From Escherichia virus TH58, in the sequence record MT446423.1: DNA of 64,000 nucleotides, one strand, 5' to 3'. Position 1 is the stretch's first letter. Every line of letters starts with the position of its first letter. The translations under genes and the position numbers were made by a program. The notes under the pieces are model-generated. The model had not been told where the DNA came from. It was given only the letters and a program-made list of their open reading frames with translations, and did not search any database. Positions 5,130 to 62,079 of this stretch are shown here, piece by piece.

Positions 5130-5711
5130 ATGACATGTCAATCTGAACTTCAAGAACGTGAATACCTAACAAATCTGATTGATAGCAAATTCACCCGCCA
5201 AGAACAAAACATTCTCTGGGCTTGCACTGATTCTAAGGAAGACCCGGATTTCCACTATGAATTAGACCATCTTGTTCGTAAGCATATGACTTCTACAGTA
5301 CCAGTAGAACTCTACCGTGGTGTAACTCCAGAAGAAGTAGAACGTCTTTCCCTTCTTTCTGTTGGATGTCATTGGTCTCCTGGACGAGTAACATCGTTCA
5401 CAACTGATTTCAGTACAGCTCGTCAATTCTCCGGGAGTTGGGAGTATCAGACGTACACTATTCTTAGTCTCAGGAATGCTCCATTCATTTTTGATTACTA
5501 CCAAAACATGATTAACATTGTACTTGCCGGAAAGAACCCTAAGCATGTTATGGAAGAAAAACGTGTTGACGTCCTAGATATGATTGAATCTGAACAAGAG
5601 TACATGGTCTCAGGTATCTCTAGATTTGAGATTGTGGAAATTGAAGACTTAGAATATGACCCTTTATCTCGATTATACAAAATCATTCATTTAAAAATGT
5701 TGAATTTTTAG
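5130..5711 (+). CDS. modB: Mod-family mono-ADP-ribosyltransferase (ModB position)
   Basis: R (LYRGV), S-x-S (FTTDFSTAR) and E-x-E (EQEYMV) motifs; GGAGG RBS; symbol assigned by T4 gene order only. Confidence 0.7.
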   Translation: MTCQSELQEREYLTNLIDSKFTRQEQNILWACTDSKEDPDFHYELDHLVRKHMTSTVPVELYRGVTPEEVERLSLLSVGCHWSPGRVTSFTTDFSTARQFSGSWEYQTYTILSLRNAPFIFDYYQNMINIVLAGKNPKHVMEEKRVDVLDMIESEQEYMVSGISRFEIVEIEDLEYDPLSRLYKIIHLKMLNF

Positions 5712-5768: not shown

Positions 5769-6377
5769 ATGTTTATGCCGTATAACGAGTGTGAAATTGA
5801 AGAAATGGTTCGTCGTGCTCAATGCCCGGATTATCAAGATATGCTTCAGTACAAAATCGATGAGCAATTCAGCGACATTGAACAAAGTGTACTATGGCAG
5901 TGTATGGAAAACAAGCCAGACAGCATCCAACAAGATTTAAGTGCAATTGTTCGTAGAAATTGGTCTTCTTCAGTTCCTGAGACAATGTATCGTGGAATCT
6001 CTAAGAAAACTATGGCCACACTTGATGATAAAGGCATAGGTAGTATTATTAAATTTGACAGAGTAATGAGCTTTAGTCCGGTGTTCGGTGTAGCACGTAA
6101 CTTCGCTTCATATAATTTTTACGGAACATTTAATATGTTCTGCATCAAAGATGCACCATTTGCTTTCAACTTCCGTGAACATATGCTTAACATGATTCTG
6201 GCTGCGCCATCTTGTGAGTTCAATGGAGCTTTCCCTGAAGCGACAAGACGGTCTAATGCTAGACTTATATCTGACGAATGTGAATTTATGCTCCCTATAG
6301 GGACTACACTGCGTGTAGATTCTATTATTCAAGATGGACGTTATACAATCTGGAATCTGTCTATTATCGGTTACTGA
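5769..6377 (+). CDS. modA: Mod-family mono-ADP-ribosyltransferase (ModA position)
   Basis: R (MYRGI), S-x-S (MSFSPVFG), E-x-E (ECEFML) motifs; tandem to previous ART; symbol positional. Confidence 0.7.
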   Translation: MFMPYNECEIEEMVRRAQCPDYQDMLQYKIDEQFSDIEQSVLWQCMENKPDSIQQDLSAIVRRNWSSSVPETMYRGISKKTMATLDDKGIGSIIKFDRVMSFSPVFGVARNFASYNFYGTFNMFCIKDAPFAFNFREHMLNMILAAPSCEFNGAFPEATRRSNARLISDECEFMLPIGTTLRVDSIIQDGRYTIWNLSIIGY

Positions 6378-12020: not shown

Positions 12021-12446
12021 ATGGCTTTTAAAGGTTTTGAAGTTGGTAAGAAATATCGTATTATCAAAGGACAGGAAGATAATTTCTTGAGACTTCTTAA
12101 TACGACTGGTAAACGTCTTAATACTAATCTGCATACTACTTTATTGTCCAAAGATTTTATTGTGGAAAAGATGATTGGTTACGGTGTTTCTGTGATTGCT
12201 GTAGAAGCCGTAGGCGATTATGGCCGAACTATTCATAGTATGCAAGGTGATATTCTGCTTTATGGTGCAGAATTTAAATTCTTTGAAGAAGTTCCGGAAC
12301 CAGATACAGCTGTCGATTTCAAAAAAGGCTCTGTAGAATTTGTTGATGGTTCGGTGATCGTATCAGGTGATGTGGTCATTACAGTTAAAAGTGAACAAGG
12401 GCGTTTGGCTGCAATTGATGCACTTCAGAAAATTAAATTTAAATAA
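12021..12446 (+). CDS. hypothetical protein
   Basis: 141 aa ORF followed by hairpin terminator. Confidence 0.5.
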   Translation: MAFKGFEVGKKYRIIKGQEDNFLRLLNTTGKRLNTNLHTTLLSKDFIVEKMIGYGVSVIAVEAVGDYGRTIHSMQGDILLYGAEFKFFEEVPEPDTAVDFKKGSVEFVDGSVIVSGDVVITVKSEQGRLAAIDALQKIKFK

Positions 12447-15795: not shown

Positions 15796-18009
15796 ATGAT
15801 TATTGAAACGGCTAAAGAAACGATTATTGGTTCAGGCGGTAAGAGCACAGCATTTACTATTCAAGGCAATAGCAAAGTTTATAAGATTTTGTCTAATGAC
15901 CTTTATACAAACAAAGAATTGGCTTGTGTACGTGAATTAATCACAAACTGTATCGATGGACAAATTCTTAACGGTTGCACTGATAAGTTTATTGTTCAGG
16001 CTCCAGGTCGTTTAGACCCGCGTTTTGTAGTTCGAGACTTTGGTCCTGGTATGAGTGATTTCACCATTCGAGGTAATGACGAAGAGCCAGGAATCTATAA
16101 CTCATATTTTGCTTCAACTAAAACATCGAGTAACGATTTCATTGGTGGATTCGGACTCGGCTCTAAAGCTCCACTAGCATATACCGATACGTTTAACCTT
16201 ACGTCTTATCACAACGGTGAAGTTCGTGGTTATGTAATTTATCAAGATGACAGTGGTCCACAAATTAAGCCAACCTTTGTAGATAAGATGGGCCCTGATG
16301 ACCGGACTGGCGTTGAAGTAGTTGTGCCTGTTAACCCAGAAGATTTTGAAAAGTTCGCATCTGAAATTGCATATGTTATGCGTCCTCTAGGTGATATTGC
16401 AGAAGTTCGTGGTGTTAAAGATATCAAATACTTCCCTGAATTTGACGATGTATATTTGGCCAAGGAAGCTCCATGGGGTGAACGCGGTAATATCATGGCT
16501 GTTTATGGCGGTATTGTATATCCAATCGGAAGTGTTATTAAAGAACAAACGTGGATGATGACGCGATGCACTACAGCTTATATTAAATTCCCTATGGGTG
16601 AACTAGATGTAGCTCCGTCTCGTGAAGCATTGTCATTTGATAAACGTACAGTAGCAAATATCCATAAACGTGTTGCAGAAATCGATGCTAAATTGTTCGC
16701 TGAAGATTCTAAGAAATGGATTGATTGTAAATACCCACGTCATGTGTTCCGTGAAATTGATTCTCTTGGCTATACCGCTCGTAAATACATGGAAAAGGCC
16801 GGGTCTAATATTGAATCACTGAAATACTCTAAAGAACAACTAACTTATTCTGAGTTGTACAAACGTTTTAAAATGGGGCCTGAGTGGTGTAATCTTGGTG
16901 TCGTATACGATATCGTTGAATCCCCTCGTCTTCGTCGTATTCGTGAAAGCGGTAGCTCAACGGCAACCATTTCAATTAACAGTCTGATTGGCATTAACAT
17001 TAAAAATGTTGAAATTGTTATTGACGACGTTAAGGGACGCGTTCCATTAATGCGAGCTCTTAATTCAATTGAAATGTCTAAAGACGAGGTTAAATTAACC
17101 GGTAAAGTTCCACGCGGTTTTGGTAAAAGCGTACTATTCGTTGACCCTACAGACGAAGATGCAATGAAACTTCTGGAACGCCTTAAAGTTATCTTTGATG
17201 GCGACAACATTAACATGTACAAGACTTCAGAGCTTTTACAAATCGTTAAGCCATGGATTGAAGTCAGGAAACGGACTAATGAGCCTCGTCCTAAATCGCC
17301 AAGTGCTCATCGATTCTTTAAGAATGAAAACGATGTTTGGGTATCAGAAGACCTCTTTATTCCGGCAAGTGAAGCAGATGAAATCCAAGGTTATGCTATA
17401 GTTCGTAATCGTTCTAATGCTGAATGTCTTGACGCAGATAAAGGTTGGTTGAACTATGACTCCAATTTCTTAACCCGTATTGCTGATTTGTCAGGTATTA
17501 AAGAGTTCACTGTAGTTCGTCCACAGATTGCTAAGAAAGTTCGTAAACTTGGTGAAGTAGAATGCTTGTTCGAAAAATCAATTAATGACTATATTACGCT
17601 AATCGATAAAGTGGATTATGATGAGTATGTATCACCAAGTCGTAGAGCACAGCCTTATTTGAATCATATTACTCGTAATGAAGAGCTTAACTTCCTTAGT
17701 AAGTATTTTAGCTCTAAGAACAAAGAAATCAGTAAAGACTTTGCAAAGCTCTCAACAGTAAATAATCGTTGGGGATGGAATCGATTCGCAGGTGCTACTA
17801 ATACAGACCTGAATAAGAAGTTAGAATTGTGTGCTAAAATTTTCGATAAGCTTAAAGATAATGCTTACGATAATGATGATAAAATGGTTATTGAATTTGA
17901 AACCAATTATCATATTGTGTCAGAATACATGGGACGACGTGGTACTCTTTCTAAAGAACAGGTCGCTCAAATCGTTAAATTCATGAAGGCCGTGGAAGCG
18001 GCCAAATAA
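15796..18009 (+). CDS. rIIA: rIIA protein
   Basis: 737 aa; size, position next to rIIB, GHKL-like N-terminal region. Confidence 0.85.
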   Translation: MIIETAKETIIGSGGKSTAFTIQGNSKVYKILSNDLYTNKELACVRELITNCIDGQILNGCTDKFIVQAPGRLDPRFVVRDFGPGMSDFTIRGNDEEPGIYNSYFASTKTSSNDFIGGFGLGSKAPLAYTDTFNLTSYHNGEVRGYVIYQDDSGPQIKPTFVDKMGPDDRTGVEVVVPVNPEDFEKFASEIAYVMRPLGDIAEVRGVKDIKYFPEFDDVYLAKEAPWGERGNIMAVYGGIVYPIGSVIKEQTWMMTRCTTAYIKFPMGELDVAPSREALSFDKRTVANIHKRVAEIDAKLFAEDSKKWIDCKYPRHVFREIDSLGYTARKYMEKAGSNIESLKYSKEQLTYSELYKRFKMGPEWCNLGVVYDIVESPRLRRIRESGSSTATISINSLIGINIKNVEIVIDDVKGRVPLMRALNSIEMSKDEVKLTGKVPRGFGKSVLFVDPTDEDAMKLLERLKVIFDGDNINMYKTSELLQIVKPWIEVRKRTNEPRPKSPSAHRFFKNENDVWVSEDLFIPASEADEIQGYAIVRNRSNAECLDADKGWLNYDSNFLTRIADLSGIKEFTVVRPQIAKKVRKLGEVECLFEKSINDYITLIDKVDYDEYVSPSRRAQPYLNHITRNEELNFLSKYFSSKNKEISKDFAKLSTVNNRWGWNRFAGATNTDLNKKLELCAKIFDKLKDNAYDNDDKMVIEFETNYHIVSEYMGRRGTLSKEQVAQIVKFMKAVEAAK

Positions 18010-54133: not shown

Positions 54134-54313
54134 ATGGCAAAACAAGCTAAAGCAAAGAAAGCAGTTGAAAAGAAAGTTGATGGTACCTCTAAACGCGCTG
54201 GATACAAGCGTGGGTCGAACTCTCGTATTAATCAAACAGTTGAGAAGATCATGCGCAGAGCACGTGCAGTTCTTCGAGATGATGCTTCTCGTTTTGGAAA
54301 GGTTGTTGCATAA
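54134..54313 (+). CDS. small highly basic protein (59 aa)
   Basis: ATG 54134; Lys/Arg-rich; followed by strong terminator; not in ORF track. Confidence 0.45.
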   Translation: MAKQAKAKKAVEKKVDGTSKRAGYKRGSNSRINQTVEKIMRRARAVLRDDASRFGKVVA

Positions 54314-54318
54314 TTTTA

Positions 54319-54341
54319 GGGAGACCGAAGTCTCCCTTTTG
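54319..54341 (+). terminator. rho-independent terminator after small basic ORF
   Basis: GGGAGAC-CGAA-GTCTCCC hairpin plus TTTT. Confidence 0.65.
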
Positions 54342-54373
54342 TGCGTTTAGGGCAGAAAAAGTTTAAAAAAGAT

Positions 54374-54402
54374 GTTTACTCTCCTGTAGGATGTGTTACT
54401 AT
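54374..54402 (+). promoter_or_regulatory. T4-type early promoter
   Basis: GTTTAC, 17-nt spacer, TACTAT, TAGACTTGTACC box. Confidence 0.5.
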
Positions 54403-54443
54403 AGACTTGTACCACCTAATCAATAAAACAATCGGAGAATAAA

Positions 54444-54812
54444 ATGAAAATCAATCTGAACTCATACATCAAATGTAAAGACCACGATGGTTATAAAGCT
54501 ATCGAAATTAAAGAATTCCAGTGGATGTTATACAAAGAGCAATTTGAGTTCGTAGGTTGTATGACACCTGAAGGTCCTTCAGATGATTTCTCTTGGAAAA
54601 TTGTGTTAGCAAACTTTTTCACAGGTGACACATACGAATTAAAAACTATTATTACCGGTAAAATTCGTTCAGAAACATATGTTGACGAAGAAACTGGTTA
54701 CTCTGAAGATGTTACATGGTATCAAAATGGACGCATTACAGCAGATAACCTGATCGAAAAAATGAAAGCCAAAGGTGTTTTAAATTTAGACAATTGGATT
54801 AAAGTTGCATAA
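54444..54812 (+). CDS. hypothetical protein
   Basis: 122 aa; own early promoter cassette; GGAGAA RBS. Confidence 0.5.
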   Translation: MKINLNSYIKCKDHDGYKAIEIKEFQWMLYKEQFEFVGCMTPEGPSDDFSWKIVLANFFTGDTYELKTIITGKIRSETYVDEETGYSEDVTWYQNGRITADNLIEKMKAKGVLNLDNWIKVA

Positions 54813-55287: not shown

Positions 55288-55902
55288 ATGTTTAAAGTTA
55301 ATACTTTTTATAAAATGAATTTTAAAAATGGGGATATTACTCCACGCCTTAAAAACATGTTCTCATATGACCTTATTGAGCCTTTTGAAGTTTTAGAAGT
55401 TACTGATGCCGGCTCGGTTTGTGAAATTAGAACTTCTGAAGGTAAAATTTATCAGGCAGGTGTTGGTAAATTTAGTAATTGTTTTACTTTAATATTCTCG
55501 ACCGATTTAGATGAGCATTTTATTGAATGTCCTAACCCTAAGGTCTACGAAGTTCCACATCAAGAAACTAAGAAAAACGGCCCGCACGAATATACGAAGG
55601 TTGAAACTCCTCACGGCGTGATGTGGCGTCATAACTCTCCTTTTGGAAGTAAAGGAACATTTGCTCAACCATCTAAACCGTATGACGATGAAAAATACAT
55701 CGTCGTCTTTTTATCTGAACAGGGTACTCAAGACCGTGGATGCCAACGAAGTGGTTTACTAAGTGAACTTGAAGCTCATAACCAAGCACGTGAATTCGTT
55801 GAGAAAAATCCTGGTTCTGAAGCTCTAGTCATGAAAGCAATTACTCAATATATCACTGCTCAACCTGTTGTTCATCCGGTAGAAATTAATTTCGTTAAGT
55901 AG
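55288..55902 (+). CDS. hypothetical protein
   Basis: 204 aa. Confidence 0.5.
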   Translation: MFKVNTFYKMNFKNGDITPRLKNMFSYDLIEPFEVLEVTDAGSVCEIRTSEGKIYQAGVGKFSNCFTLIFSTDLDEHFIECPNPKVYEVPHQETKKNGPHEYTKVETPHGVMWRHNSPFGSKGTFAQPSKPYDDEKYIVVFLSEQGTQDRGCQRSGLLSELEAHNQAREFVEKNPGSEALVMKAITQYITAQPVVHPVEINFVK

Positions 55903-55932
55903 TTTACATCCAAGGACGGATTAGAGTATAAT
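55902..55932 (+). promoter_or_regulatory. T4-type early promoter with spacer hairpin
   Basis: GTTTAC, spacer ATCCAAGGACGGAT, TATAAT. Confidence 0.5.
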
Positions 55933-55955
55933 GATTTCTTTAGTAAGTGGAAAAT

Positions 55956-56153
55956 ATGAAATTTTTAATAGCACAAACAGTCCAATTAAAAGGTGTTGGA
56001 ATCCCTGGGATGATTTTTAAAGTTCTCCATGAATTTAAAACCGCTGCTGGAATTATCAATGAAGCGTATGCTGTTCAATGGGTTGATGGGACTTCTGACA
56101 TACGTATGGGTAAAGAGTTATCTCCTATTAAAGGGTTGAAACATGTTGAATAA
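55956..56153 (+). CDS. hypothetical small protein
   Basis: ATG 55956 after early promoter. Confidence 0.4.
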   Translation: MKFLIAQTVQLKGVGIPGMIFKVLHEFKTAAGIINEAYAVQWVDGTSDIRMGKELSPIKGLKHVE

Positions 56154-56355
56154 ATTAATCCAGAAATTTTTTGGTACGGAAATGATTGAAGTTACGTATC
56201 GTGTGACTGATGTAAGCCCGTGGGCCCGAAAAGTTGAACCATATACTAAAACAATTAAAATGCTGAAATATGACGGTGGATTATCTATCAAAGACCGTCT
56301 ACCGGCTTATGGACATTGGGCTGATGTTGAAATTATAAGTGTTAAAGATGTCTGA
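56143..56355 (+). CDS. hypothetical small protein
   Basis: 70 aa. Confidence 0.4.
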   Translation: MLNKLIQKFFGTEMIEVTYRVTDVSPWARKVEPYTKTIKMLKYDGGLSIKDRLPAYGHWADVEIISVKDV

Positions 56356-56806
56356 GTTAGAGATTAGAAGCAATTTTAGATGGCCGTCATGTGCATTAAG
56401 TAACTTTGCTCAATGGCCTTTTGTTATGGATGGTATTCAATTCGGAGGTCTTGAAGGATTTCTCCAAGGATGTAAGGTGAAAAATGTTGAACAACAAAAA
56501 CGTATATTTGGGTTGTCTGGATTGGCTGCACAGCAAGCTGGAAGGTCTTATGCAAGAGCTCAGGACCGTGGGACTCTCTTCTGGTTAGGAGTTCCATTTT
56601 CAAGATACTCCGAAGCGTGGAAAGAATTATACACAAATGCATATTTTGAAGCCGCGATCCAAAATAAGGGGTTTCGTGATGCCTTACAAGCCTCTAAAGG
56701 AAAAATTTTGAAGCACAGCATGGCCAGCCATCTAACAAAAGATGATACAATATTAACCGAAGCCGAATTTATTGATGTGTTAAACCTATTAAGAGACTCT
56801 TTATGA
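56348..56806 (+). CDS. NADAR (YbiA/DUF1768)-like protein
   Basis: LSNFAQWPF..DG..F...E..LQ..K resembles the NADAR N-terminal signature. Confidence 0.5.
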   Translation: MSELEIRSNFRWPSCALSNFAQWPFVMDGIQFGGLEGFLQGCKVKNVEQQKRIFGLSGLAAQQAGRSYARAQDRGTLFWLGVPFSRYSEAWKELYTNAYFEAAIQNKGFRDALQASKGKILKHSMASHLTKDDTILTEAEFIDVLNLLRDSL

Positions 56807-57627
56807 AACCTACTATTTTGACTGATATTGATGGTGTATGTTTAAGCTGGCAATCTGGACTTCCTTATTTTGCCCAAAAATATAATCTTCCATTAGAACA
56901 TATTTTAAAAATGATTCAGGACGAAAAATTTATTTCTCCTGGTAAACTATTCAATACCGATGATAACCTTGGTAAACAATTAATAGAAAAATATAATAGC
57001 TCTGATTTTATTCGTTACTTAGCGCCTTATTCAGATGCTCTTCGAGTTATCAATAAACTAAAAGAAGACTATAATTTTGTAGCCGTGACGGCGCTAGGTG
57101 ATTCAATTGATGCTCGATTGAATAGACAATTTAATTTGAATGCTTTGTTCCCAGGCGCCTTTTCTGAAGTAATGATGTGTGGACATGATTCTTCAAAGGA
57201 ACAATTATTCGAACTAGCTAAAACAAAATATAACGTGATTTGTTACGTTGACGATTTAGCTCATCACTGTGACCATGCAGCAGAAATTCTTAATGTACCG
57301 ATTTATTGGTTGGCTCGTGGTGAACGTGATGATATTCCTCGCGCTGCACAACGTGTACACACGTGGGATGATATTGAATCTCGTTTGGTTCCACCAGAGC
57401 ATAATTCAGATTCAGATCGTGAAGACCTTTTAAAACGATTGGCGGATTTGCTTAAAGAATCTGGTGCAACAAGTCCAGGTGCATGGCCTAATCAAATTGG
57501 TGGCCCCTCGACAACACGTACTCCATATACCTGGCGAACCCCAGGACCAACTGATATGCAGCCGTGGTGGACGATTCAAAACTTTCCTTTAGATTCGTCT
57601 AAATGGACTTGGTCTATAAATTGTTAA
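56803..57627 (+). CDS. HAD-superfamily phosphatase-like protein with Trp-rich C-terminal tail
   Basis: N-terminal HAD motif I (TDIDGV); ATGA coupling to NADAR gene. Confidence 0.5.
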   Translation: MKPTILTDIDGVCLSWQSGLPYFAQKYNLPLEHILKMIQDEKFISPGKLFNTDDNLGKQLIEKYNSSDFIRYLAPYSDALRVINKLKEDYNFVAVTALGDSIDARLNRQFNLNALFPGAFSEVMMCGHDSSKEQLFELAKTKYNVICYVDDLAHHCDHAAEILNVPIYWLARGERDDIPRAAQRVHTWDDIESRLVPPEHNSDSDREDLLKRLADLLKESGATSPGAWPNQIGGPSTTRTPYTWRTPGPTDMQPWWTIQNFPLDSSKWTWSINC

Positions 57628-57636
57628 GGGTTAATT

Positions 57637-57906
57637 ATGTTTGTAGTTCATGATATTACAGATGGCAAAAACACCACACGTGACTACGGTCACGTTAACA
57701 TGTTCTTTCGAGACTGGCCATTGTTTCGTTCAGTAAAAGACGCAGAAATATTTAAAGAGTGTGTTGAACAAGGGTTCATCTACATTTCAGAATACTATGT
57801 TGAAGGACTCGGTAAATGGATTACCACTTATCAGAAAACGCTGAAATCGCTTCTAGATGAAGTGGCTTATAATAGAACCGTAACCAAAATCGAGGACATC
57901 AAATGA
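57637..57906 (+). CDS. hypothetical protein
   Basis: 89 aa; coupled to ligase start. Confidence 0.45.
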   Translation: MFVVHDITDGKNTTRDYGHVNMFFRDWPLFRSVKDAEIFKECVEQGFIYISEYYVEGLGKWITTYQKTLKSLLDEVAYNRTVTKIEDIK

Positions 57907-59396
57907 TTTTAGATATTTTAAACCAAATAGCTGCGATCGGTTCTACTAAAACAAAACAAGAAATCCTTAAGAAAAATAAGGACAACAAATTACTTGAACG
58001 TGTGTTTCGTTTAACATATGCACGTGGTATCCAGTATTATATTAAGAAATGGCCAGGACCGGGTGAAAGGTCTCAAGCATATGGTCTTCTTGAATTAGAT
58101 GACATGTTGGATTTTATTGAGTTCACATTAGCCACTCGTAAACTCACTGGTAATGCTGCAATTAAAGAGCTCATGGGTTATATCGCTGACGGTAAACCTG
58201 ATGATGTAGAAGTCCTTCGTCGTGTAATGATGCGCGACCTTGAAGTAGGTGCTTCAGTGTCTATCGCGAATAAGGTGTGGCCTGGACTTATTCAATTGCA
58301 ACCGCAGATGTTAGCATCTGCATATGATGAGAAATTGATTACTAAAAATATTAAATGGCCCGCATTTGCCCAATTAAAAGCAGATGGTGCTCGTTGTTTC
58401 GCTGAAGTTCGCGATGATGGCGTTCAATTCTTTTCTCGTGCCGGTAACGAATACCATGGTCTTACTCTATTAGCAGATGAACTAATGGAAATGACTAAAG
58501 AAGCTCGTGAAAGACACCATAATGGGGTTTTAATCGACGGTGAATTAGTTTATCATTCATTCGATATTAAAAAGGCTGTGAGCTCAGGAAATGACCTGTC
58601 GTTCTTATTTGGTGATAATGAAGAATCCGAAGAAGTACAAGTTGCAGACCGTAGCACTTCAAATGGTTTAGCAAATAAATCTCTTCAAGGGACTATTTCT
58701 CCTAAAGAAGCGGAAGGTATGGTTCTTCAAGCCTGGGACTATGTTCCTTTAGATGAAGTCTATTCTGATGGCAAAATTAAAGGTCAGAAATACGATGTTC
58801 GTTTTGCTGCTCTTGAAAATATGGCTGAATGCTTTAAGCGAATTGAGCCAATTGAAAATCAGTTAGTTCGTAATCTTGATGAAGCTAAATTGGTTTATAA
58901 GAAATATGTTGACCAAGGTCTTGAAGGTATTATCCTTAAAAACCGTGATTCATATTGGGAAAACAAACGCTCTAAGAACCTAATTAAATTTAAAGAAGTT
59001 ATTGATATCGCTTTAGAAGTTGTAGGATACTATGAACACTCTAAAGACCCTAACAAATTAGGTGGTGTCGAACTCGTATCACGTTGTCGTCGTATTACAA
59101 CCGATTGTGGTTCAGGGTTTAAAGATACAACTCATAAAACAGTTGACGGTGTAAAGGTTCTTATTCCTTTAGACGAACGTCATGATTTGGACCGTGAACG
59201 ATTAATGTCCGAAGCTCGTGAAGGTAAATTAATTGGACGTATCGCTGATTGTGAATGTAATGGTTGGGTTCATTCTAAAGGCCGTGAAGGTACTGTAGGT
59301 ATTTTCCTTCCAATTATTAAAGGGTTCCGTTTTGATAAAACAGAAGCGGATTCATTTGAAGACGTATTTGGACCGTGGTCCCAGACAGGTTTATAA
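57903..59396 (+). CDS. 30: ATP-dependent DNA ligase
   Basis: 497 aa; KADG adenylation motif; near-colinear with T4 DNA ligase. Confidence 0.9.
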   Translation: MILDILNQIAAIGSTKTKQEILKKNKDNKLLERVFRLTYARGIQYYIKKWPGPGERSQAYGLLELDDMLDFIEFTLATRKLTGNAAIKELMGYIADGKPDDVEVLRRVMMRDLEVGASVSIANKVWPGLIQLQPQMLASAYDEKLITKNIKWPAFAQLKADGARCFAEVRDDGVQFFSRAGNEYHGLTLLADELMEMTKEARERHHNGVLIDGELVYHSFDIKKAVSSGNDLSFLFGDNEESEEVQVADRSTSNGLANKSLQGTISPKEAEGMVLQAWDYVPLDEVYSDGKIKGQKYDVRFAALENMAECFKRIEPIENQLVRNLDEAKLVYKKYVDQGLEGIILKNRDSYWENKRSKNLIKFKEVIDIALEVVGYYEHSKDPNKLGGVELVSRCRRITTDCGSGFKDTTHKTVDGVKVLIPLDERHDLDRERLMSEAREGKLIGRIADCECNGWVHSKGREGTVGIFLPIIKGFRFDKTEADSFEDVFGPWSQTGL

Positions 59397-59584
59397 TGAA
59401 AGCTTATTTAGAAACAGTTATTGTAGCTAAGAAGGAAGGTGGAGATGTTTCCACCTCTTGTTCCCAAATTGTATTAGATTTTCCTAATAACGATTCCTAT
59501 AATATTTTTATGGACAATTTTGATAAGTACGAAAAAGGCCCTAATTTTGAAGTTTATCGTACTTTGCTCCTGATTGTGGATTAA
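59396..59584 (+). CDS. hypothetical small protein
   Basis: ATG overlapping ligase stop (TAATG); followed by terminator. Confidence 0.4.
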   Translation: MKAYLETVIVAKKEGGDVSTSCSQIVLDFPNNDSYNIFMDNFDKYEKGPNFEVYRTLLLIVD

Positions 59585-59603
59585 GAGCCTTCGGGCTCTT
59601 TTT
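59584..59603 (+). terminator. rho-independent terminator upstream of alt
   Basis: AGAGCC-TTCG-GGCTCT hairpin plus TTTT. Confidence 0.6.
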
Positions 59604-59605
59604 GG

Positions 59606-59619
59606 CATAAATATAAATT
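59606..59619 (+). promoter_or_regulatory. possible late promoter for alt (near-consensus)
   Basis: CATAAATATAAATT, two overlapping near matches to TATAAATA. Confidence 0.3.
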
Positions 59620-59639
59620 ATTACTAAAAGGAAAACACT

Positions 59640-61727
59640 ATGTCTGAACAATTAAATGAAGTGTTTGAATCTGAAGGCAGTCTTCCTGTCGTCAATTTGA
59701 ACCCTAAAGCTAAAGTTCCACAAGTCTGGAAAATTGGTGATATCGATACAAACATCGTAGTTCGTTTATTCTCTTACCTTTCCGAAGGCGATGCTGTAAA
59801 ACAAGTTAAACTTGGTGACAAATACGCTCATGTCGTTATTATGAGTCTTTCTGAAAAGGGTAATCTCGCTGAATTGAAAAATGGCCTTGGTCCTGCTCCT
59901 ATTGATGCAATCAACACCATTTTCAATACGGTATATGAACAGGTTAAAGCTCTTCGTATGGATGCAGTTCTGTTCCGATTCCCTACCAAGAAATTGAAAG
60001 GACGTGGACAACAACTTCAAACTCTTCTTGCTCGTTTAGTTTCTACTAAAACCGGTGGTCGTTTTAAAGTATTGTCTGCAATGTATCAATTCACAGGTAA
60101 ACACACATATGTGATGATGGTTCGTAAAAATGCCGACATTGAAGATATTAAAGGCATCCCTAACATTAACACAGAGTTGTACACGAAAGTAGATTCTGAT
60201 GTTGGTGAAGTTTATGTGAGTAAAAAGACTGGCGAAAAAGTCACCAAAGAAATGGCTATCGCTGGTTCTATTGCTGCTGTAGAAGAAAAACGTAAAGATA
60301 AGCCTGTTATTGCTCGTACTAAAATTTCTCGTCGCGCTATTGCAGCAAGTCAATCTTTAGAAGCTGACCGCCAAGAAGGTGAGCTATTCCAGAAATACGA
60401 AAATTCTGCTAAAGAAGTTAGTGGCCCAGCTACAGCTGAATTACTTCCTGAAGCATATGAAATCGTACTAGCCCAAGCATCGTCCACAGCAAAAGGCACT
60501 TTAGTTGCTGATATCGAAAATAAGATTTATAATCGTATTGATGAATCCTTTAGATTTGCTGATGAAGTTTCTTATGGCAGTGTTATTAAGCCAACTTTAG
60601 AAAAGTTTGCTAAGAAAATTAAAACTGAAAAAACAACATCTGTTAAAGCATTAGCTGCTTTTGTTGAAGCTGCAAACGAAATTGCAGACTCTATTAAAGA
60701 CGAATGGTTTGAAGATTTTAGACGAGATAATTTCCAACTGGCTGACGACGTTTTAGCTGAAGTATCTGAAAAAACTTGGAAACAACGTAAATCAGCGTTC
60801 TTGTCTAATGTGATGTATACTTATGCACGAGAATCGGCTAGAGGCACCTTTAATATAACAATGAATCGGGACCCTAAACAATACTCTGTTGCTGAAAAAC
60901 GAGCTATTCGTGAATATGCCTCTTCTGCGTATACCGATATCAATAATATGTTGTTAGGCCGTTATAAACCGGATTTTTACGATGTTGCAGATGAAGATGA
61001 AGTTAAACGCGCTATCGATGGTCTTGATTCGGCGTTTTTAAATGGAGACCGTTTACCTGAAGGACTAACGTTATATAGAGCTCAGTCTATCAGAATGCCT
61101 ATTTACGAAGCAATGGTTAAAAATAAGGTATTCTACTTCAGAAACTATGTTTCCACTTCACTAGCTCCTATTATTTTCGGTGGGTTTAAAGAGAACGTTG
61201 CCCTTGGACTTGCTCCTGAAGAAGTTCGCAAAGAGCTTAACATTGACAATAATGACGAAGGTGTTACTATTTCTCCTAGTCAAGTAAGAACAGCTATGCA
61301 TGCACCAGAACAAATCCGTGTTAACGTTGGATGGGCTATTGATGGCGCCCATAAAGTTAACGTGATTTATCCTGGACAGTTGAGTAATCACCCTAATGAG
61401 CAAGAAATTATTTTGCCTAGAGGCATTCTCTTGCAGATAAATAAAATTACGGATGCGTCATCTGACACTGGTGCAGGTTTAGAATCCAACCTTAAATTTA
61501 TTCAAGCTGAAGTCATGTCCTCAGACCAGTTGGACGAAGCTGTCATTTACGATGGTGATGTTCTCATGGAAACAGGCGAGGTTGTTGCTATGACTGGTGA
61601 AATCGAATCGGATGAGCCGGTATCGTTCTCTTCATTTGTAGAAAAAACTAGTGCTCCTAAAGGATTGAAATTGTTAGCATCTTTAATGGATTTAGAATCA
61701 GTTCCGTTTAAATTTGTCCAAGGATAG
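59640..61727 (+). CDS. alt: Alt ADP-ribosyltransferase (virion-packaged)
   Basis: 695 aa; R (LYRAQS), STS (YVSTSLAP), E-x-E (EQEIILPRG) in C-terminal part; T4 Alt size and position. Confidence 0.85.
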   Translation: MSEQLNEVFESEGSLPVVNLNPKAKVPQVWKIGDIDTNIVVRLFSYLSEGDAVKQVKLGDKYAHVVIMSLSEKGNLAELKNGLGPAPIDAINTIFNTVYEQVKALRMDAVLFRFPTKKLKGRGQQLQTLLARLVSTKTGGRFKVLSAMYQFTGKHTYVMMVRKNADIEDIKGIPNINTELYTKVDSDVGEVYVSKKTGEKVTKEMAIAGSIAAVEEKRKDKPVIARTKISRRAIAASQSLEADRQEGELFQKYENSAKEVSGPATAELLPEAYEIVLAQASSTAKGTLVADIENKIYNRIDESFRFADEVSYGSVIKPTLEKFAKKIKTEKTTSVKALAAFVEAANEIADSIKDEWFEDFRRDNFQLADDVLAEVSEKTWKQRKSAFLSNVMYTYARESARGTFNITMNRDPKQYSVAEKRAIREYASSAYTDINNMLLGRYKPDFYDVADEDEVKRAIDGLDSAFLNGDRLPEGLTLYRAQSIRMPIYEAMVKNKVFYFRNYVSTSLAPIIFGGFKENVALGLAPEEVRKELNIDNNDEGVTISPSQVRTAMHAPEQIRVNVGWAIDGAHKVNVIYPGQLSNHPNEQEIILPRGILLQINKITDASSDTGAGLESNLKFIQAEVMSSDQLDEAVIYDGDVLMETGEVVAMTGEIESDEPVSFSSFVEKTSAPKGLKLLASLMDLESVPFKFVQG

Positions 61728-61756
61728 TTTACAAACACATGGATGTGTGATACTAT
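61727..61756 (+). promoter_or_regulatory. T4-type early promoter with spacer hairpin
   Basis: GTTTAC, spacer ACACATGGATGTGT, TACTAT. Confidence 0.5.
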
Positions 61757-61785
61757 CATCCCATCAACAACATGAGGAAAACGTT

Positions 61786-62079
61786 ATGAAATCTATGCTT
61801 CGCTTTAATGGTCAAGAACTAGTAGTTGAAGATGCTATCCCAGCGGATGATGTTTTTAACGAAGCTGTGATTGACGAATTGAATCGAGTATTCCCAGGTG
61901 CATTCCATATTGCTATGGAACCTCTTAAAAACTTTCGTGACCCTGAGCACACTGATCAAATTTTTGTCGGTGTAGTGACAGGTCATTTAGAAACAGAGGT
62001 ACCAATGGTCGTATTAGTTAAATACTCTAAAGATGATACTCCATTCCGAGCACCAGCATTCCTTTCATTCCGTAAATAA
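61786..62079 (+). CDS. hypothetical protein
   Basis: 98 aa from ATG 61786 after early promoter; followed by terminator. Confidence 0.45.
   Translation: MKSMLRFNGQELVVEDAIPADDVFNEAVIDELNRVFPGAFHIAMEPLKNFRDPEHTDQIFVGVVTGHLETEVPMVVLVKYSKDDTPFRAPAFLSFRK

What the first reader, a model, noticed from the sequence alone, without database searches (positions are those of the whole stretch)
56348..57627. Translationally coupled NADAR-like and HAD-like genes just upstream of DNA ligase
ORF 56348-56806 carries an FSNF-type N-terminal signature (LSNFAQWPF...DG..F) reminiscent of NADAR/YbiA domains, which can remove ADP-ribose from guanine in DNA. Its stop overlaps the start of a HAD-motif (TDIDGV) phosphatase-like ORF. 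The same genome encodes three ADP-ribosyltransferases. The pair could be a counter-defence against DarT-type DNA ADP-ribosylating toxins or part of nucleotide or sugar-phosphate processing.
Basis: partly seen in the sequence, partly recalled or inferred. Interest (0 to 1): 0.55.

Follow-up and report, generated by a model that had tools for sequence, protein, structure and literature searches.

The report
Known anti-DarT NADAR gene plus HAD phosphatase
The first gene is an intact copy of adfN (T4 gene 30.3), a phage enzyme already shown to strip toxic ADP-ribose from phage DNA and defeat the bacterial DarTG1 defence. Its overlapping neighbour is an uncharacterised nucleotidase-like HAD phosphatase that tracks with the DNA ligase gene, so the finding is correct but already published.

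Summary
ORF 56348-56806 (152 aa) and ORF 56803-57627 (274 aa) overlap by 4 nt (ATGA). They sit in a tightly packed early operon of an RB69-like Mosigvirus, just upstream of 30.1, DNA ligase and Alt.

ORF1 is gene 30.3 (Pfam Phage_30_3, E 1.6e-69) and is 147/152 identical to T4 gp30.3. T4 gp30.3 is AdfN, a NADAR DNA ADP-ribosylglycohydrolase. It hydrolyses guanine-ADP-ribose in vitro and is necessary and sufficient for T-even resistance to DarTG1 (Toxins 2024; Nat Commun 2025). The window copy keeps E36, K43 and H123 and the C-terminal helix. It lacks the single-T frameshift that inactivates the RB69 allele.

ORF2 is gene 30.2. It has a C1-capped HAD fold, all four catalytic motifs are conserved, and it is closest to NT5C-type 5'(3')-deoxyribonucleotidases. 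It also has a hypervariable, disordered C-terminal tail. Its function has not been tested.

Gene linkage argues against a NADAR-HAD module. 72 of 78 loci with 30.2 have ligase directly downstream, but only 37 have 30.3 upstream. In many T4-like genera the two genes lie about 55-60 kb apart. 4-nt overlaps are routine in this region.

Verdict: correct, but already known. The only open point is what 30.2 does.

The parts
55903..55932 (+). Sigma-70-like promoter candidate (TTTACA-18-TATAAT, 11/12) ahead of the gene chain 55947->59396
   Evidence: Consensus scan only. The total number of sites is not above the shuffled expectation, so this is weak evidence.
55947..56153 (+). Small early ORF (68 aa, phrog_1690, unknown function), first gene of the packed chain
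56143..56355 (+). Gene 30.4 homologue (70 aa, phrog_2042). Its stop overlaps the adfN start by 8 nt.
   Evidence: The RB69 annotation has gp30.4 at the same position.
56348..56806 (+). adfN (gene 30.3): intact phage-type NADAR DNA ADP-ribosylglycohydrolase, 152 aa. Catalytic codons: E36 = 56453-56455, K43 = 56474-56476, H123 = 56714-56716. The C-terminal helix (residues 138-151) is present.
   Evidence: Pfam PF08010, E 1.6e-69. 147/152 identical to T4 gp30.3. The model has pLDDT 92.8 and hits only NADAR structures. The family profile hits YbiA 2B3W, and 14/37 members hit Pfam NADAR.
56757..56758 (+). Position where RB69 carries an extra T (gene position 411) that creates a premature TGA. The window and T4 lack this insertion.
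   Evidence: Three-way DNA alignment. The RB69 30.3 is annotated as 137 aa. The frameshift is described in PMC11825919.
56803..56806 (+). ATGA: the start of 30.2 overlaps the stop of adfN
   Evidence: The same junction occurs in T4.
56803..57402 (+). Gene 30.2, catalytic part: C1-capped HAD phosphatase core (residues 1-~200). Motif I is D8/D10 (56824-56826, 56830-56832), motif II T96, motif III K132, motif IV D150-D151. Closest to the NT5C family.
57403..57627 (+). Gene 30.2, C-terminal tail (residues ~201-274). It is Trp/Pro-rich, predicted disordered after one helix, and hypervariable or absent in relatives.
   Evidence: pLDDT <50 for residues 227-241 and 259-274. The tail cannot be aligned with T4's. 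Tail length ranges from 0 to about 150 aa in the family.
57637..57906 (+). Gene 30.1 (DUF3045, 89 aa), 9 nt after 30.2 and overlapping the ligase start by 4 nt
57903..59396 (+). Gene 30, ATP-dependent DNA ligase. It is the conserved downstream partner of 30.2.
   Evidence: Pfam E 8.4e-26. Ligase lies downstream of 30.2 in 72/78 viral loci.
59640..61727 (+). alt, ADP-ribosyltransferase (context only)
   Evidence: Pfam ADPrib_exo_Tox, E 6e-28

Best explanation
The interval holds two adjacent early genes of an RB69-like T-even phage (Mosigvirus). They are co-transcribed and translationally coupled like most of their neighbours, but they probably do separate jobs.

**Gene 1 (56348-56806)** is adfN (gene 30.3), a free-standing phage-type NADAR enzyme.
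- When a host DarTG1 toxin-antitoxin system senses infection, its DarT1 toxin attaches ADP-ribose to guanine in phage DNA and blocks replication.
- AdfN hydrolyses the guanine-ADP-ribose N-glycosidic bond, using E36, K43 and the clade-specific H123, and so restores a replicable template.
- It does this without binding the toxin. It acts as an 'orphan antitoxin' carried by the phage.
- This copy is intact. RB69 itself carries a one-base frameshift, so this phage is predicted to be DarTG1-resistant.
- What is shown and what is inferred: the activity and phenotype are shown in the literature for the 96.7%-identical T4 protein. Here they are inferred from orthology, fold and residue conservation.

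**Gene 2 (56803-57627)** is gene 30.2, a Mg-dependent HAD phosphatase with a helical C1 cap and all catalytic motifs.
- It is most similar to NT5C-type 5'(3')-deoxyribonucleotidases.
- It most likely dephosphorylates a (deoxy)nucleoside monophosphate or a similar small phosphomonoester, as part of the phage's DNA and nucleotide metabolism.
- Its conserved genomic partner is the DNA ligase gene.
- Its substrate is inferred, not shown.
For: **adfN**
- Pfam Phage_30_3, E 1.6e-69.
- 147/152 identity and equal length to T4 gp30.3. None of the 5 substitutions falls at E36, K43 or H123.
- E36 and H123 are invariant and K43 is nearly invariant in 37 family members.
- The family profile hits YbiA 2B3W at E 0.0035, aligning LSNF...DG...E..FQ..K.
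- 14/37 members hit Pfam NADAR, best E 1.5e-7.
- The AF2 model (pLDDT 92.8) hits only YbiA, Phytophthora NADAR and Geobacter DarG1-type NADAR in the PDB.
- No RB69-type frameshift is present.
- Literature: T4 gp30.3 hydrolyses guanine-ADPr in vitro (PMC11125620). It is necessary and sufficient against DarTG1, E36A and K43A variants and the C-terminal truncation are impaired, and no DarT1 binding is seen (PMC11825919).

**30.2**
- D8, D10 and K132 are invariant, and T96, D150 and D151 are nearly invariant, in 42 homologues.
- The model is confident for residues 1-220.
- The wider family profile hits 3bwv (putative 5'(3')-deoxyribonucleotidase) over its full length at E 2.3e-5.
- 14/47 distant members hit Pfam NT5C, best E 4.2e-10.

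**Independence of the two genes**
- Ligase follows 30.2 in 72/78 loci, but 30.3 precedes it in only 37/78.
- Only about 21 of 80 loci with 30.3 have 30.2 within 6 kb.
- The same contigs carry the two genes about 55-60 kb apart in several genera.
- Overlapping junctions are common in the region.
Against: - No experiment was done on this phage.
- The window protein itself does not reach Pfam NADAR or any PADLOC DarG model. NADAR membership therefore rests on family-level profiles and the predicted fold.
- AdfN-T4 does not protect uninfected E. coli or non-T-even phages. The mechanism in vivo is therefore incomplete and needs an unidentified T-even factor.
- For 30.2 the fold searches do not discriminate between HAD substrates. 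Dehalogenases, sugar phosphatases and nucleotidases all score alike.
- The window protein has only sub-threshold HAD Pfam hits (E 0.014).
- T-even phages are thought to recycle host dNMPs, which sits awkwardly with a general dNMP phosphatase.
Confidence: 0.85

Rival explanations
1. The two genes form a functional two-enzyme module. On this view gp30.2 is the unidentified T-even-specific factor that AdfN needs for full activity. It might stabilise or localise AdfN, or process a phosphorylated product or intermediate of ADP-ribose removal.
For: - AdfN-T4 works only during T-even infection, and the authors postulate an unknown T-even factor.
- 30.2 is translationally coupled to adfN in T4, T2, RB69-like and related phages.
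- Both genes occur in nearly the same set of T4-like phages: 1510 versus 1438 records, with similar genus counts.
- RB69, which is rescued by ectopic AdfN, has 30.2.
- gp30.2 has a variable disordered tail that could be an interaction module.
Against: - In most loci with a 30.3 homologue there is no 30.2 within 6 kb. In several T4-like genera the genes are about 55-60 kb apart.
- 30.2 stays next to ligase in 72/78 loci.
- In a jumbo-phage context the gene after the NADAR is not a HAD (hhalign probability 0.14).
- ADP-ribose released by a glycohydrolase has no phosphomonoester for a HAD phosphatase to attack.
- About 100 T4 genes of unknown function are equally eligible candidates.
- Overlaps are generic in this region.
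Confidence: 0.07
2. gp30.2 is a nucleic-acid end-healing 3'-phosphatase. It would resemble the HAD domain of polynucleotide kinase-phosphatase and prepare nicks for the adjacent DNA ligase.
For: - There is very strong conserved linkage of 30.2-(30.1)-ligase, sometimes with directly abutting or overlapping genes.
- One distant family member weakly hits Pfam HAD_PNKP (E 0.0032).
- cdN-type enzymes also act on 3'-nucleotides (general knowledge).
Against: - The model has a substantial helical C1 cap (residues ~16-86). By general HAD-superfamily knowledge, such a cap closes over small substrates, whereas macromolecule-acting HADs are cap-less.
- The best sequence and profile links are to NT5C, not PNKP.
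- The phage already encodes a polynucleotide kinase/3'-phosphatase. It is annotated in a relative that is 97% identical over the queried 56100-57950 segment.
Confidence: 0.1
3. The NADAR's main role is not anti-DarT. On this view it balances the phage's own ADP-ribosyltransferases (Alt, ModA, ModB) or degrades soluble ADP-ribose-derived immune signals.
For: - Three ARTs are encoded in the window, and alt lies 2.8 kb downstream.
- Comparative genomics noted co-expression of NADAR with ARTs in T4-like phages and proposed soluble ADPr derivatives as substrates (PMC9503650).
Against: - Direct experiments show guanine-ADPr hydrolysis on DNA and a clear DarTG1 phenotype on deletion.
- Alt and Mod modify proteins (T4 record annotations), not guanine.
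- No experiment supports the alternative roles. They could still be additional functions rather than exclusive ones.
Confidence: 0.05

Closest known systems
AdfN (T4 gp30.3), anti-DarT factor NADAR (Johannesman et al., Nat Commun 2025, PMC11825919; in vitro activity in Toxins 2024, PMC11125620)
   Same: - 147/152 identical residues and the same 152-aa length.
- Same genomic position: 30.4-30.3-30.2-30.1-ligase-alt.
- Same ATGA junction with 30.2.
- E36, K43 and H123 and the C-terminal helix are retained.
   Different: - Five conservative substitutions: K51R, E89P, I120V, M125I, H128G.
- The host genome is RB69-like (96.5% nt identity to RB69) rather than T4.
- Unlike RB69's own allele, it has no frameshift.
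DarG1 / DarT1-associated NADAR antitoxins (BC4488 family; Geobacter lovleyi NADAR 8BAT; Schuller et al., Mol Cell 2023, PMC11543638)
   Same: - Same fold (Foldseek probability 0.99).
- Same Glu and Lys catalytic residues.
- Same chemistry: guanine-ADPr hydrolysis. It acts enzymatically rather than by binding the toxin.
   Different: - There is no adjacent DarT gene, so it is an orphan.
- It lacks the N-terminal extension of DarG1.
- The third catalytic residue is His rather than Asp.
- No PADLOC hit.
- The T4 orthologue cannot replace DarG1 in uninfected cells.
E. coli YbiA (PDB 2B3W), the housekeeping NADAR and N-glycosidase of riboflavin intermediates
   Same: - Best structural match: TM 0.69 over 157 columns.
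- The shared N-terminal motif xSNFA.WP..DG....E..FQ..K aligns.
   Different: - About 16% identity.
- YbiA has Glu where the phage clade has His123.
- Different biological role.
NT5C family 5'(3')-deoxyribonucleotidases (cdN/mdN; 2JAO, 2I7D, 1MH9; S. epidermidis 3BWV)
   Same: - HAD core plus helical C1 cap and a DxDGV motif I.
- An aromatic residue (W16) sits where cdN has the Phe after motif I (alignment).
- Top Foldseek hits and the only full-length profile hit in the PDB.
   Different: - Only 15-19% identity.
- The window protein itself is below every Pfam threshold.
- It carries an extra 70-aa disordered, hypervariable tail.
- Its substrate is unknown.
Phage T5 Dmp, 5'-deoxynucleoside monophosphatase
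   Same: It is a precedent for a phage early gene that dephosphorylates dNMPs and tunes nucleotide pools.
   Different: - T5 discards host nucleotides, whereas T-even phages recycle them.
- Homology between Dmp and gp30.2 was not tested here.

Membership tests
NADAR superfamily | [quoted passage not shown] | tested here: met
   The AF2 model has pLDDT 92.8 and pTM 0.88. The only significant PDB matches are 2B3W, 8BAU and 8BAT, at probability 0.99-1.0.
NADAR superfamily | Conserved catalytic Glu and Lys in the N-terminal E..[FL]Q..K motif | tested here: met
   E36 is invariant and K43 is >=90% conserved in 37 homologues. The motif aligns to YbiA sEhyFQaqK. Both residues are needed for full AdfN-T4 activity: the E36A and K43A variants gave only partial rescue.
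NADAR superfamily | Charged catalytic residue at the last beta-strand (Glu in YbiA, Asp in BC4488, His in the phage gp30.3 clade) | tested here: met
   H123 is invariant and lies at the end of strand 120-122 in the model.
NADAR superfamily | Match to Pfam NADAR (PF08719) | tested here: inconclusive
   The window protein has no hit at E<=1. 14 of 37 family members do hit, with best E 1.5e-7. Pfam keeps the clade as a separate family, PF08010, which is matched at E 1.6e-69.
NADAR superfamily | Hydrolysis of guanine-linked ADP-ribose on DNA | not testable with these tools
   Shown for T4 gp30.3 in PMC11125620 and PMC11825919.
AdfN (functional anti-DarTG1 allele of gene 30.3) | Orthology to T4/T2 gp30.3 (sequence and synteny) | tested here: met
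   96.7% identity, and the same neighbours and junctions.
AdfN (functional anti-DarTG1 allele of gene 30.3) | Full-length protein with the C-terminal helix (no RB69-type +T frameshift at nt 411) | tested here: met
   DNA alignment of window, RB69 and T4. Helix 138-151 is present in the model.
AdfN (functional anti-DarTG1 allele of gene 30.3) | Confers plaquing on DarTG1-expressing hosts | not testable with these tools
   Needs plaque assays.
DarTG1 toxin-antitoxin system | NADAR gene adjacent to a DarT ADP-ribosyltransferase gene | tested here: not met
   The neighbours are 30.4 and 30.2. There are no DarT Pfam or PADLOC hits in the flanking proteins. It works like the antitoxin but is not part of a TA operon.
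HAD superfamily phosphatases | Rossmann-like HAD core fold | tested here: met
HAD superfamily phosphatases | Four catalytic motifs (DxD; S/T; K; DD/ED) | tested here: met
   D8 and D10 are invariant, T96 is >=90% conserved, K132 is invariant, and D150/D151 are >=90% conserved in 42 homologues. D8, D10 and K132 are still invariant in 47 distant members.
HAD superfamily phosphatases | Pfam HAD model above threshold | tested here: not met
   HAD_2 scores E 0.014 and 16 bits, against a cutoff of 23.8. Membership rests on the fold and the motifs.
NT5C 5'(3')-deoxyribonucleotidase family | Sequence-profile membership (PF06941) | tested here: inconclusive
   The window protein has no hit. 5/42 close members and 14/47 distant members hit NT5C, with best E 4.2e-10. 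The family profile hits 3bwv at E 2.3e-5.
NT5C 5'(3')-deoxyribonucleotidase family | dNMP phosphatase activity and deoxyribose/base-specificity pocket | not testable with these tools
   Only W16 aligned to the cdN Phe after motif I. Enzymology is needed.

The most novel reading that the evidence does not exclude
gp30.2, the HAD phosphatase translationally coupled to adfN, could be the still-unidentified T-even-specific factor without which AdfN-T4 cannot neutralise DarT1. It might act as a partner through its variable tail, or as a second catalytic step. Published work leaves that factor open, and my linkage data weaken this idea but do not exclude it.
Probability: 0.07. Interest if true: 0.6.

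Novelty: already known. Interest (0 to 1): 0.2.

Why it matters
The NADAR gene is a textbook-quality example of a phage 'orphan antitoxin' counter-defence. It is already published, so the value here is confirmatory.

It shows that this RB69-like phage carries the intact allele. The phage should therefore resist DarTG1, whereas RB69 itself is sensitive because of a single inserted base. That is useful for predicting host range in T-even phages.

The remaining open point is gene 30.2. It is a widely conserved HAD phosphatase of T4-like phages, linked to the ligase gene, with no known function. Knowing its substrate would fill a gap in T4 nucleotide and DNA metabolism. It would also test whether it has any role in the unexplained T-even dependence of AdfN.

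Tried and rejected
- **Single-sequence search of gp30.3 against PDB sequences.** No hit at E<=10. The family profile and a fold search were needed.
- **NCBIfam and PADLOC for both proteins.** Nothing useful.
- **Literature on 30.2.** Searches for 'gp30.2', and for '30.2' together with 'phage T4' and 'haloacid dehalogenase', returned no papers.
- **Fusion proteins in the 30.2 family** (P0257, P0305, P0205, P0248). Pfam gave no informative extra domains.
- **Recombinational import of a T4 allele.** I considered that the near-T4-identical AdfN in a Mosigvirus reflected import from T4. I rejected this: the gene is 95-98% identical at the nucleotide level to RB69 and only 88-92% to T4. The high protein identity therefore reflects purifying selection.
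- **NADAR-HAD adjacency outside T4-likes.** In a 308-kb jumbo-phage contig the downstream 254-aa gene is not a HAD.
- **T4's annotated overlapping gene 30.3'.** In the window that frame carries a stop codon.
Full report
**What is in the sequence.** The window around 56-58 kb is a run of same-strand early genes.
- ORF 56348-56806 (152 aa from the ATG) ends with a TGA that shares three bases with the ATG of ORF 56803-57627 (274 aa), giving an ATGA junction.
- The first ORF's own ATG overlaps the stop of the preceding 70-aa ORF by 8 nt.
- The second ORF is followed after 9 nt by an 89-aa DUF3045 gene, which in turn overlaps the ATP-dependent DNA ligase gene by 4 nt.
- The statement about three ADP-ribosyltransferases also holds inside the window. 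Alt is at 59640-61727 (Pfam E 6e-28), and two Mod-like ORFs are at 5130-5711 and 5769-6377.
- Antisense and alternative-frame ORFs in the interval match nothing in PHROGs.

**Whose genome this is.**
- The 1.85-kb region is 97.5% identical to Escherichia phage 55, which is classified as Mosigvirus.
- The stretch 56140-61800 is 96.5% identical to RB69. T4 is more distant, at 55-92% identity depending on the gene.
- The gene order gp31 - rIII - 30.9...30.4 - 30.3 - 30.2 - 30.1 - 30 (ligase) - alt.1 - alt is the same as in T4 and RB69.
- The two ORFs are therefore T-even genes 30.3 and 30.2.

**Gene 30.3 is AdfN, a NADAR enzyme.**
- The protein matches Pfam PF08010 (Phage_30_3) at E 1.6e-69.
- It is 147/152 identical to T4 gp30.3 and has the same length.
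- The single sequence finds nothing in the PDB. A profile of 37 family members hits E. coli YbiA (2B3W) at E 0.0035 across the motif LSNFa..P..vDG...sE.fFQ..K.
- 14 of the 37 members individually hit Pfam NADAR, with best E 1.5e-7.
- An AlphaFold model built on the family alignment is confident (pLDDT 92.8, pTM 0.88).
- Its only meaningful PDB matches are the three NADAR structures: YbiA (TM 0.69), Phytophthora NADAR with ADP-ribose, and the Geobacter DarT1-associated NADAR.
- E36 and H123 are invariant and K43 nearly so. H123 ends the last strand. That is the position where the YbiA family has Glu, the DarT-associated family has Asp, and the phage gp30.3 clade has His.

**What is already published.**
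- De Souza and Aravind placed gp30.3 proteins in the NADAR superfamily (cited).
- Schuller et al. (2023) showed that NADARs reverse DarT1's guanine ADP-ribosylation (PMC11543638).
- A 2024 study showed that purified T4 gp30.3 hydrolyses guanine-ADP-ribose, but not thymidine-ADP-ribose, on DNA. It also showed that the protein cannot rescue DarT1 toxicity in uninfected E. coli (PMC11125620).
- Johannesman et al. (2025) renamed the gene adfN. They showed it is necessary in T4 and T2, and sufficient for RB69, to overcome DarTG1.
- They also showed that the E36A and K43A variants and a C-terminal truncation are impaired, and that AdfN does not bind DarT1.
- They found that RB69 is DarTG1-sensitive because a T inserted at gene position 411 truncates AdfN by 15 residues (PMC11825919).

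**What is specific to this window.**
- A three-way DNA alignment shows that RB69 reads AACTTGAAG where the window and T4 read AAC-CGAAG.
- The window thus carries the intact allele on an otherwise RB69-like backbone, and the C-terminal helix (residues 138-151) is present.
- The prediction is that this phage, unlike RB69, resists DarTG1.
- I first suspected a recombinational import of a T4 allele, because the protein is 96.7% identical to T4's while ligase is only 63% identical and gp30.1 only 55%.
- That suspicion is wrong. At the nucleotide level the gene is 95-98% identical to RB69 and 88-92% to T4.
- AdfN is simply the most strongly conserved protein of the region.

**Gene 30.2 is an NT5C-like HAD phosphatase.**
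- Sequence evidence for the single protein is weak: HAD_2 at E 0.014 and cdN 2JAO at E 0.2.
- In 42 homologues the HAD motifs are conserved. D8, D10 and K132 are invariant, and T96 and D150-D151 are nearly invariant.
- The AlphaFold model is confident for residues 1-220. It shows a Rossmann-like core with a helical cap inserted after motif I.
- Foldseek's best PDB hits are cytosolic and mitochondrial 5'(3')-deoxyribonucleotidases and other C1-capped HADs, at E about 1e-7.
- An exhaustive profile search shows a large family: 1,094 clusters at E<=0.001, mostly 190-220 aa.
- A profile of 47 distant members hits 3BWV over its full length at E 2.3e-5.
- 14 of those 47 members hit Pfam NT5C, with best E 4.2e-10.
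- The nearly invariant W16 aligns with the Phe that follows motif I in cdN. From memory, that Phe contacts the base, so this point is inference.
- The most likely activity is therefore a (deoxy)nucleoside-monophosphate phosphatase. I put this at roughly 40-50%. The HAD phosphatase call itself is much firmer.
- No paper on gp30.2 function was found, and PHROGs lists it as unknown.
- The last ~70 residues are Trp/Pro-rich and predicted disordered. They cannot be aligned even with T4, and they range from absent to about 150 aa in relatives.

**Are the two genes a module?** I tested this with gene linkage.
- Of 80 viral contigs carrying a 30.3 homologue, only the T-even-like ones have 30.2 abutting it. 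A few have it 0.7-1.2 kb downstream with small genes in between. About 60 have no 30.2 within 6 kb.
- Of 78 contigs carrying a 30.2 homologue, 72 have the ligase gene immediately downstream, but only 37 have 30.3 upstream.
- Several T4-like genomes carry both genes about 55-60 kb apart. One example is contig 2974666281, with 30.3 near 71 kb and 30.2 near 128 kb.
- In a jumbo-phage context the gene after the NADAR is not a HAD.
- Overlapping junctions are generic here. In the 22.7-kb early region of a relative 97% identical over the query, 14 of 39 adjacent pairs overlap, six of them by 4 nt.
- The adjacency is therefore lineage-specific gene order. The conserved partner of 30.2 is ligase.
- This lowers, but does not eliminate, the idea that gp30.2 is the unknown T-even factor AdfN-T4 needs. 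I give that idea about 7%.

**Verdict.** The NADAR and anti-DarT reading is right but already published as AdfN. The HAD call is right, with a nucleotidase-like assignment added here. The pairing is probably incidental. Novelty: already known. Interest is low, apart from the untested function of gene 30.2.

Noticed in passing
window 55288-55902 (+): A 204-aa ORF (phrog_17531, no Pfam hit) fills a slot that has no counterpart in either T4 or RB69. The DNA does not align to either over 55300-55900. It occurs in only 120 phage records, nearly all Escherichia or Shigella T-even-like phages. It looks like an accessory gene in a hyperplastic region between 30.7 and 30.4.
   Followed up: partly
window 56484-56711 (+, frame +1 relative to adfN): T4 annotates an internal overlapping gene 30.3' in this frame. 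In the window the frame is interrupted by a stop codon (...GLSSG*EFH...). The overlapping ORF is therefore not conserved and is probably not a real gene.
   Followed up: yes
L161 (PQ572755.1) 17047-17427; proteins P0103-P0105: Public annotations of close relatives start gene 30.3 at the internal Met27, giving 126 aa. This cuts off the conserved N-terminal strand and the LSNF motif. Several shorter database entries (89-109 aa; e.g. from phages SV76, UGJNEcP4, NR1) suggest either further mis-annotation or more disrupted adfN alleles like RB69's.
   Followed up: partly
window 57403-57627; L001 4550-4792: The C-terminal tail of gp30.2 is hypervariable. The HAD core is about 87% identical to T4's, but the tail is unalignable apart from a short TWRTPG motif. 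Many lineages lack the tail altogether, and others share a G(I/V)EYL..(Q/R)PT(A/S) motif. This could be a fast-evolving interaction module.
   Followed up: partly
window 56348-59396 vs L001: Conservation relative to T4 is very uneven. AdfN is 96.7% identical at the protein level, the gp30.2 core about 87%, gp30.1 55% and DNA ligase 63%. AdfN is under unusually strong purifying selection for a non-essential counter-defence gene.
   Followed up: partly
L163 (RB69) 12225-12268: The RB69 frameshift not only truncates AdfN. It also replaces the ATGA overlap with a 42-nt untranslated gap before 30.2, which could lower 30.2 translation in RB69.
   Followed up: no
window 54300-54800: The 30.8-like gene (54444-54812) drops to 64-73% nucleotide identity with RB69, while its flanks are 90-99% identical. 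T4 does not align here at all. This is another mosaic patch in the 30.x region.
   Followed up: no
L164 5001-10294 (308-kb jumbo-phage contig): A His-type gp30.3 homologue in a jumbo phage lies near NUDIX and Thg1-like genes. This is a different, possibly NAD/ADP-ribose- or RNA-repair-related neighbourhood.
   Followed up: no
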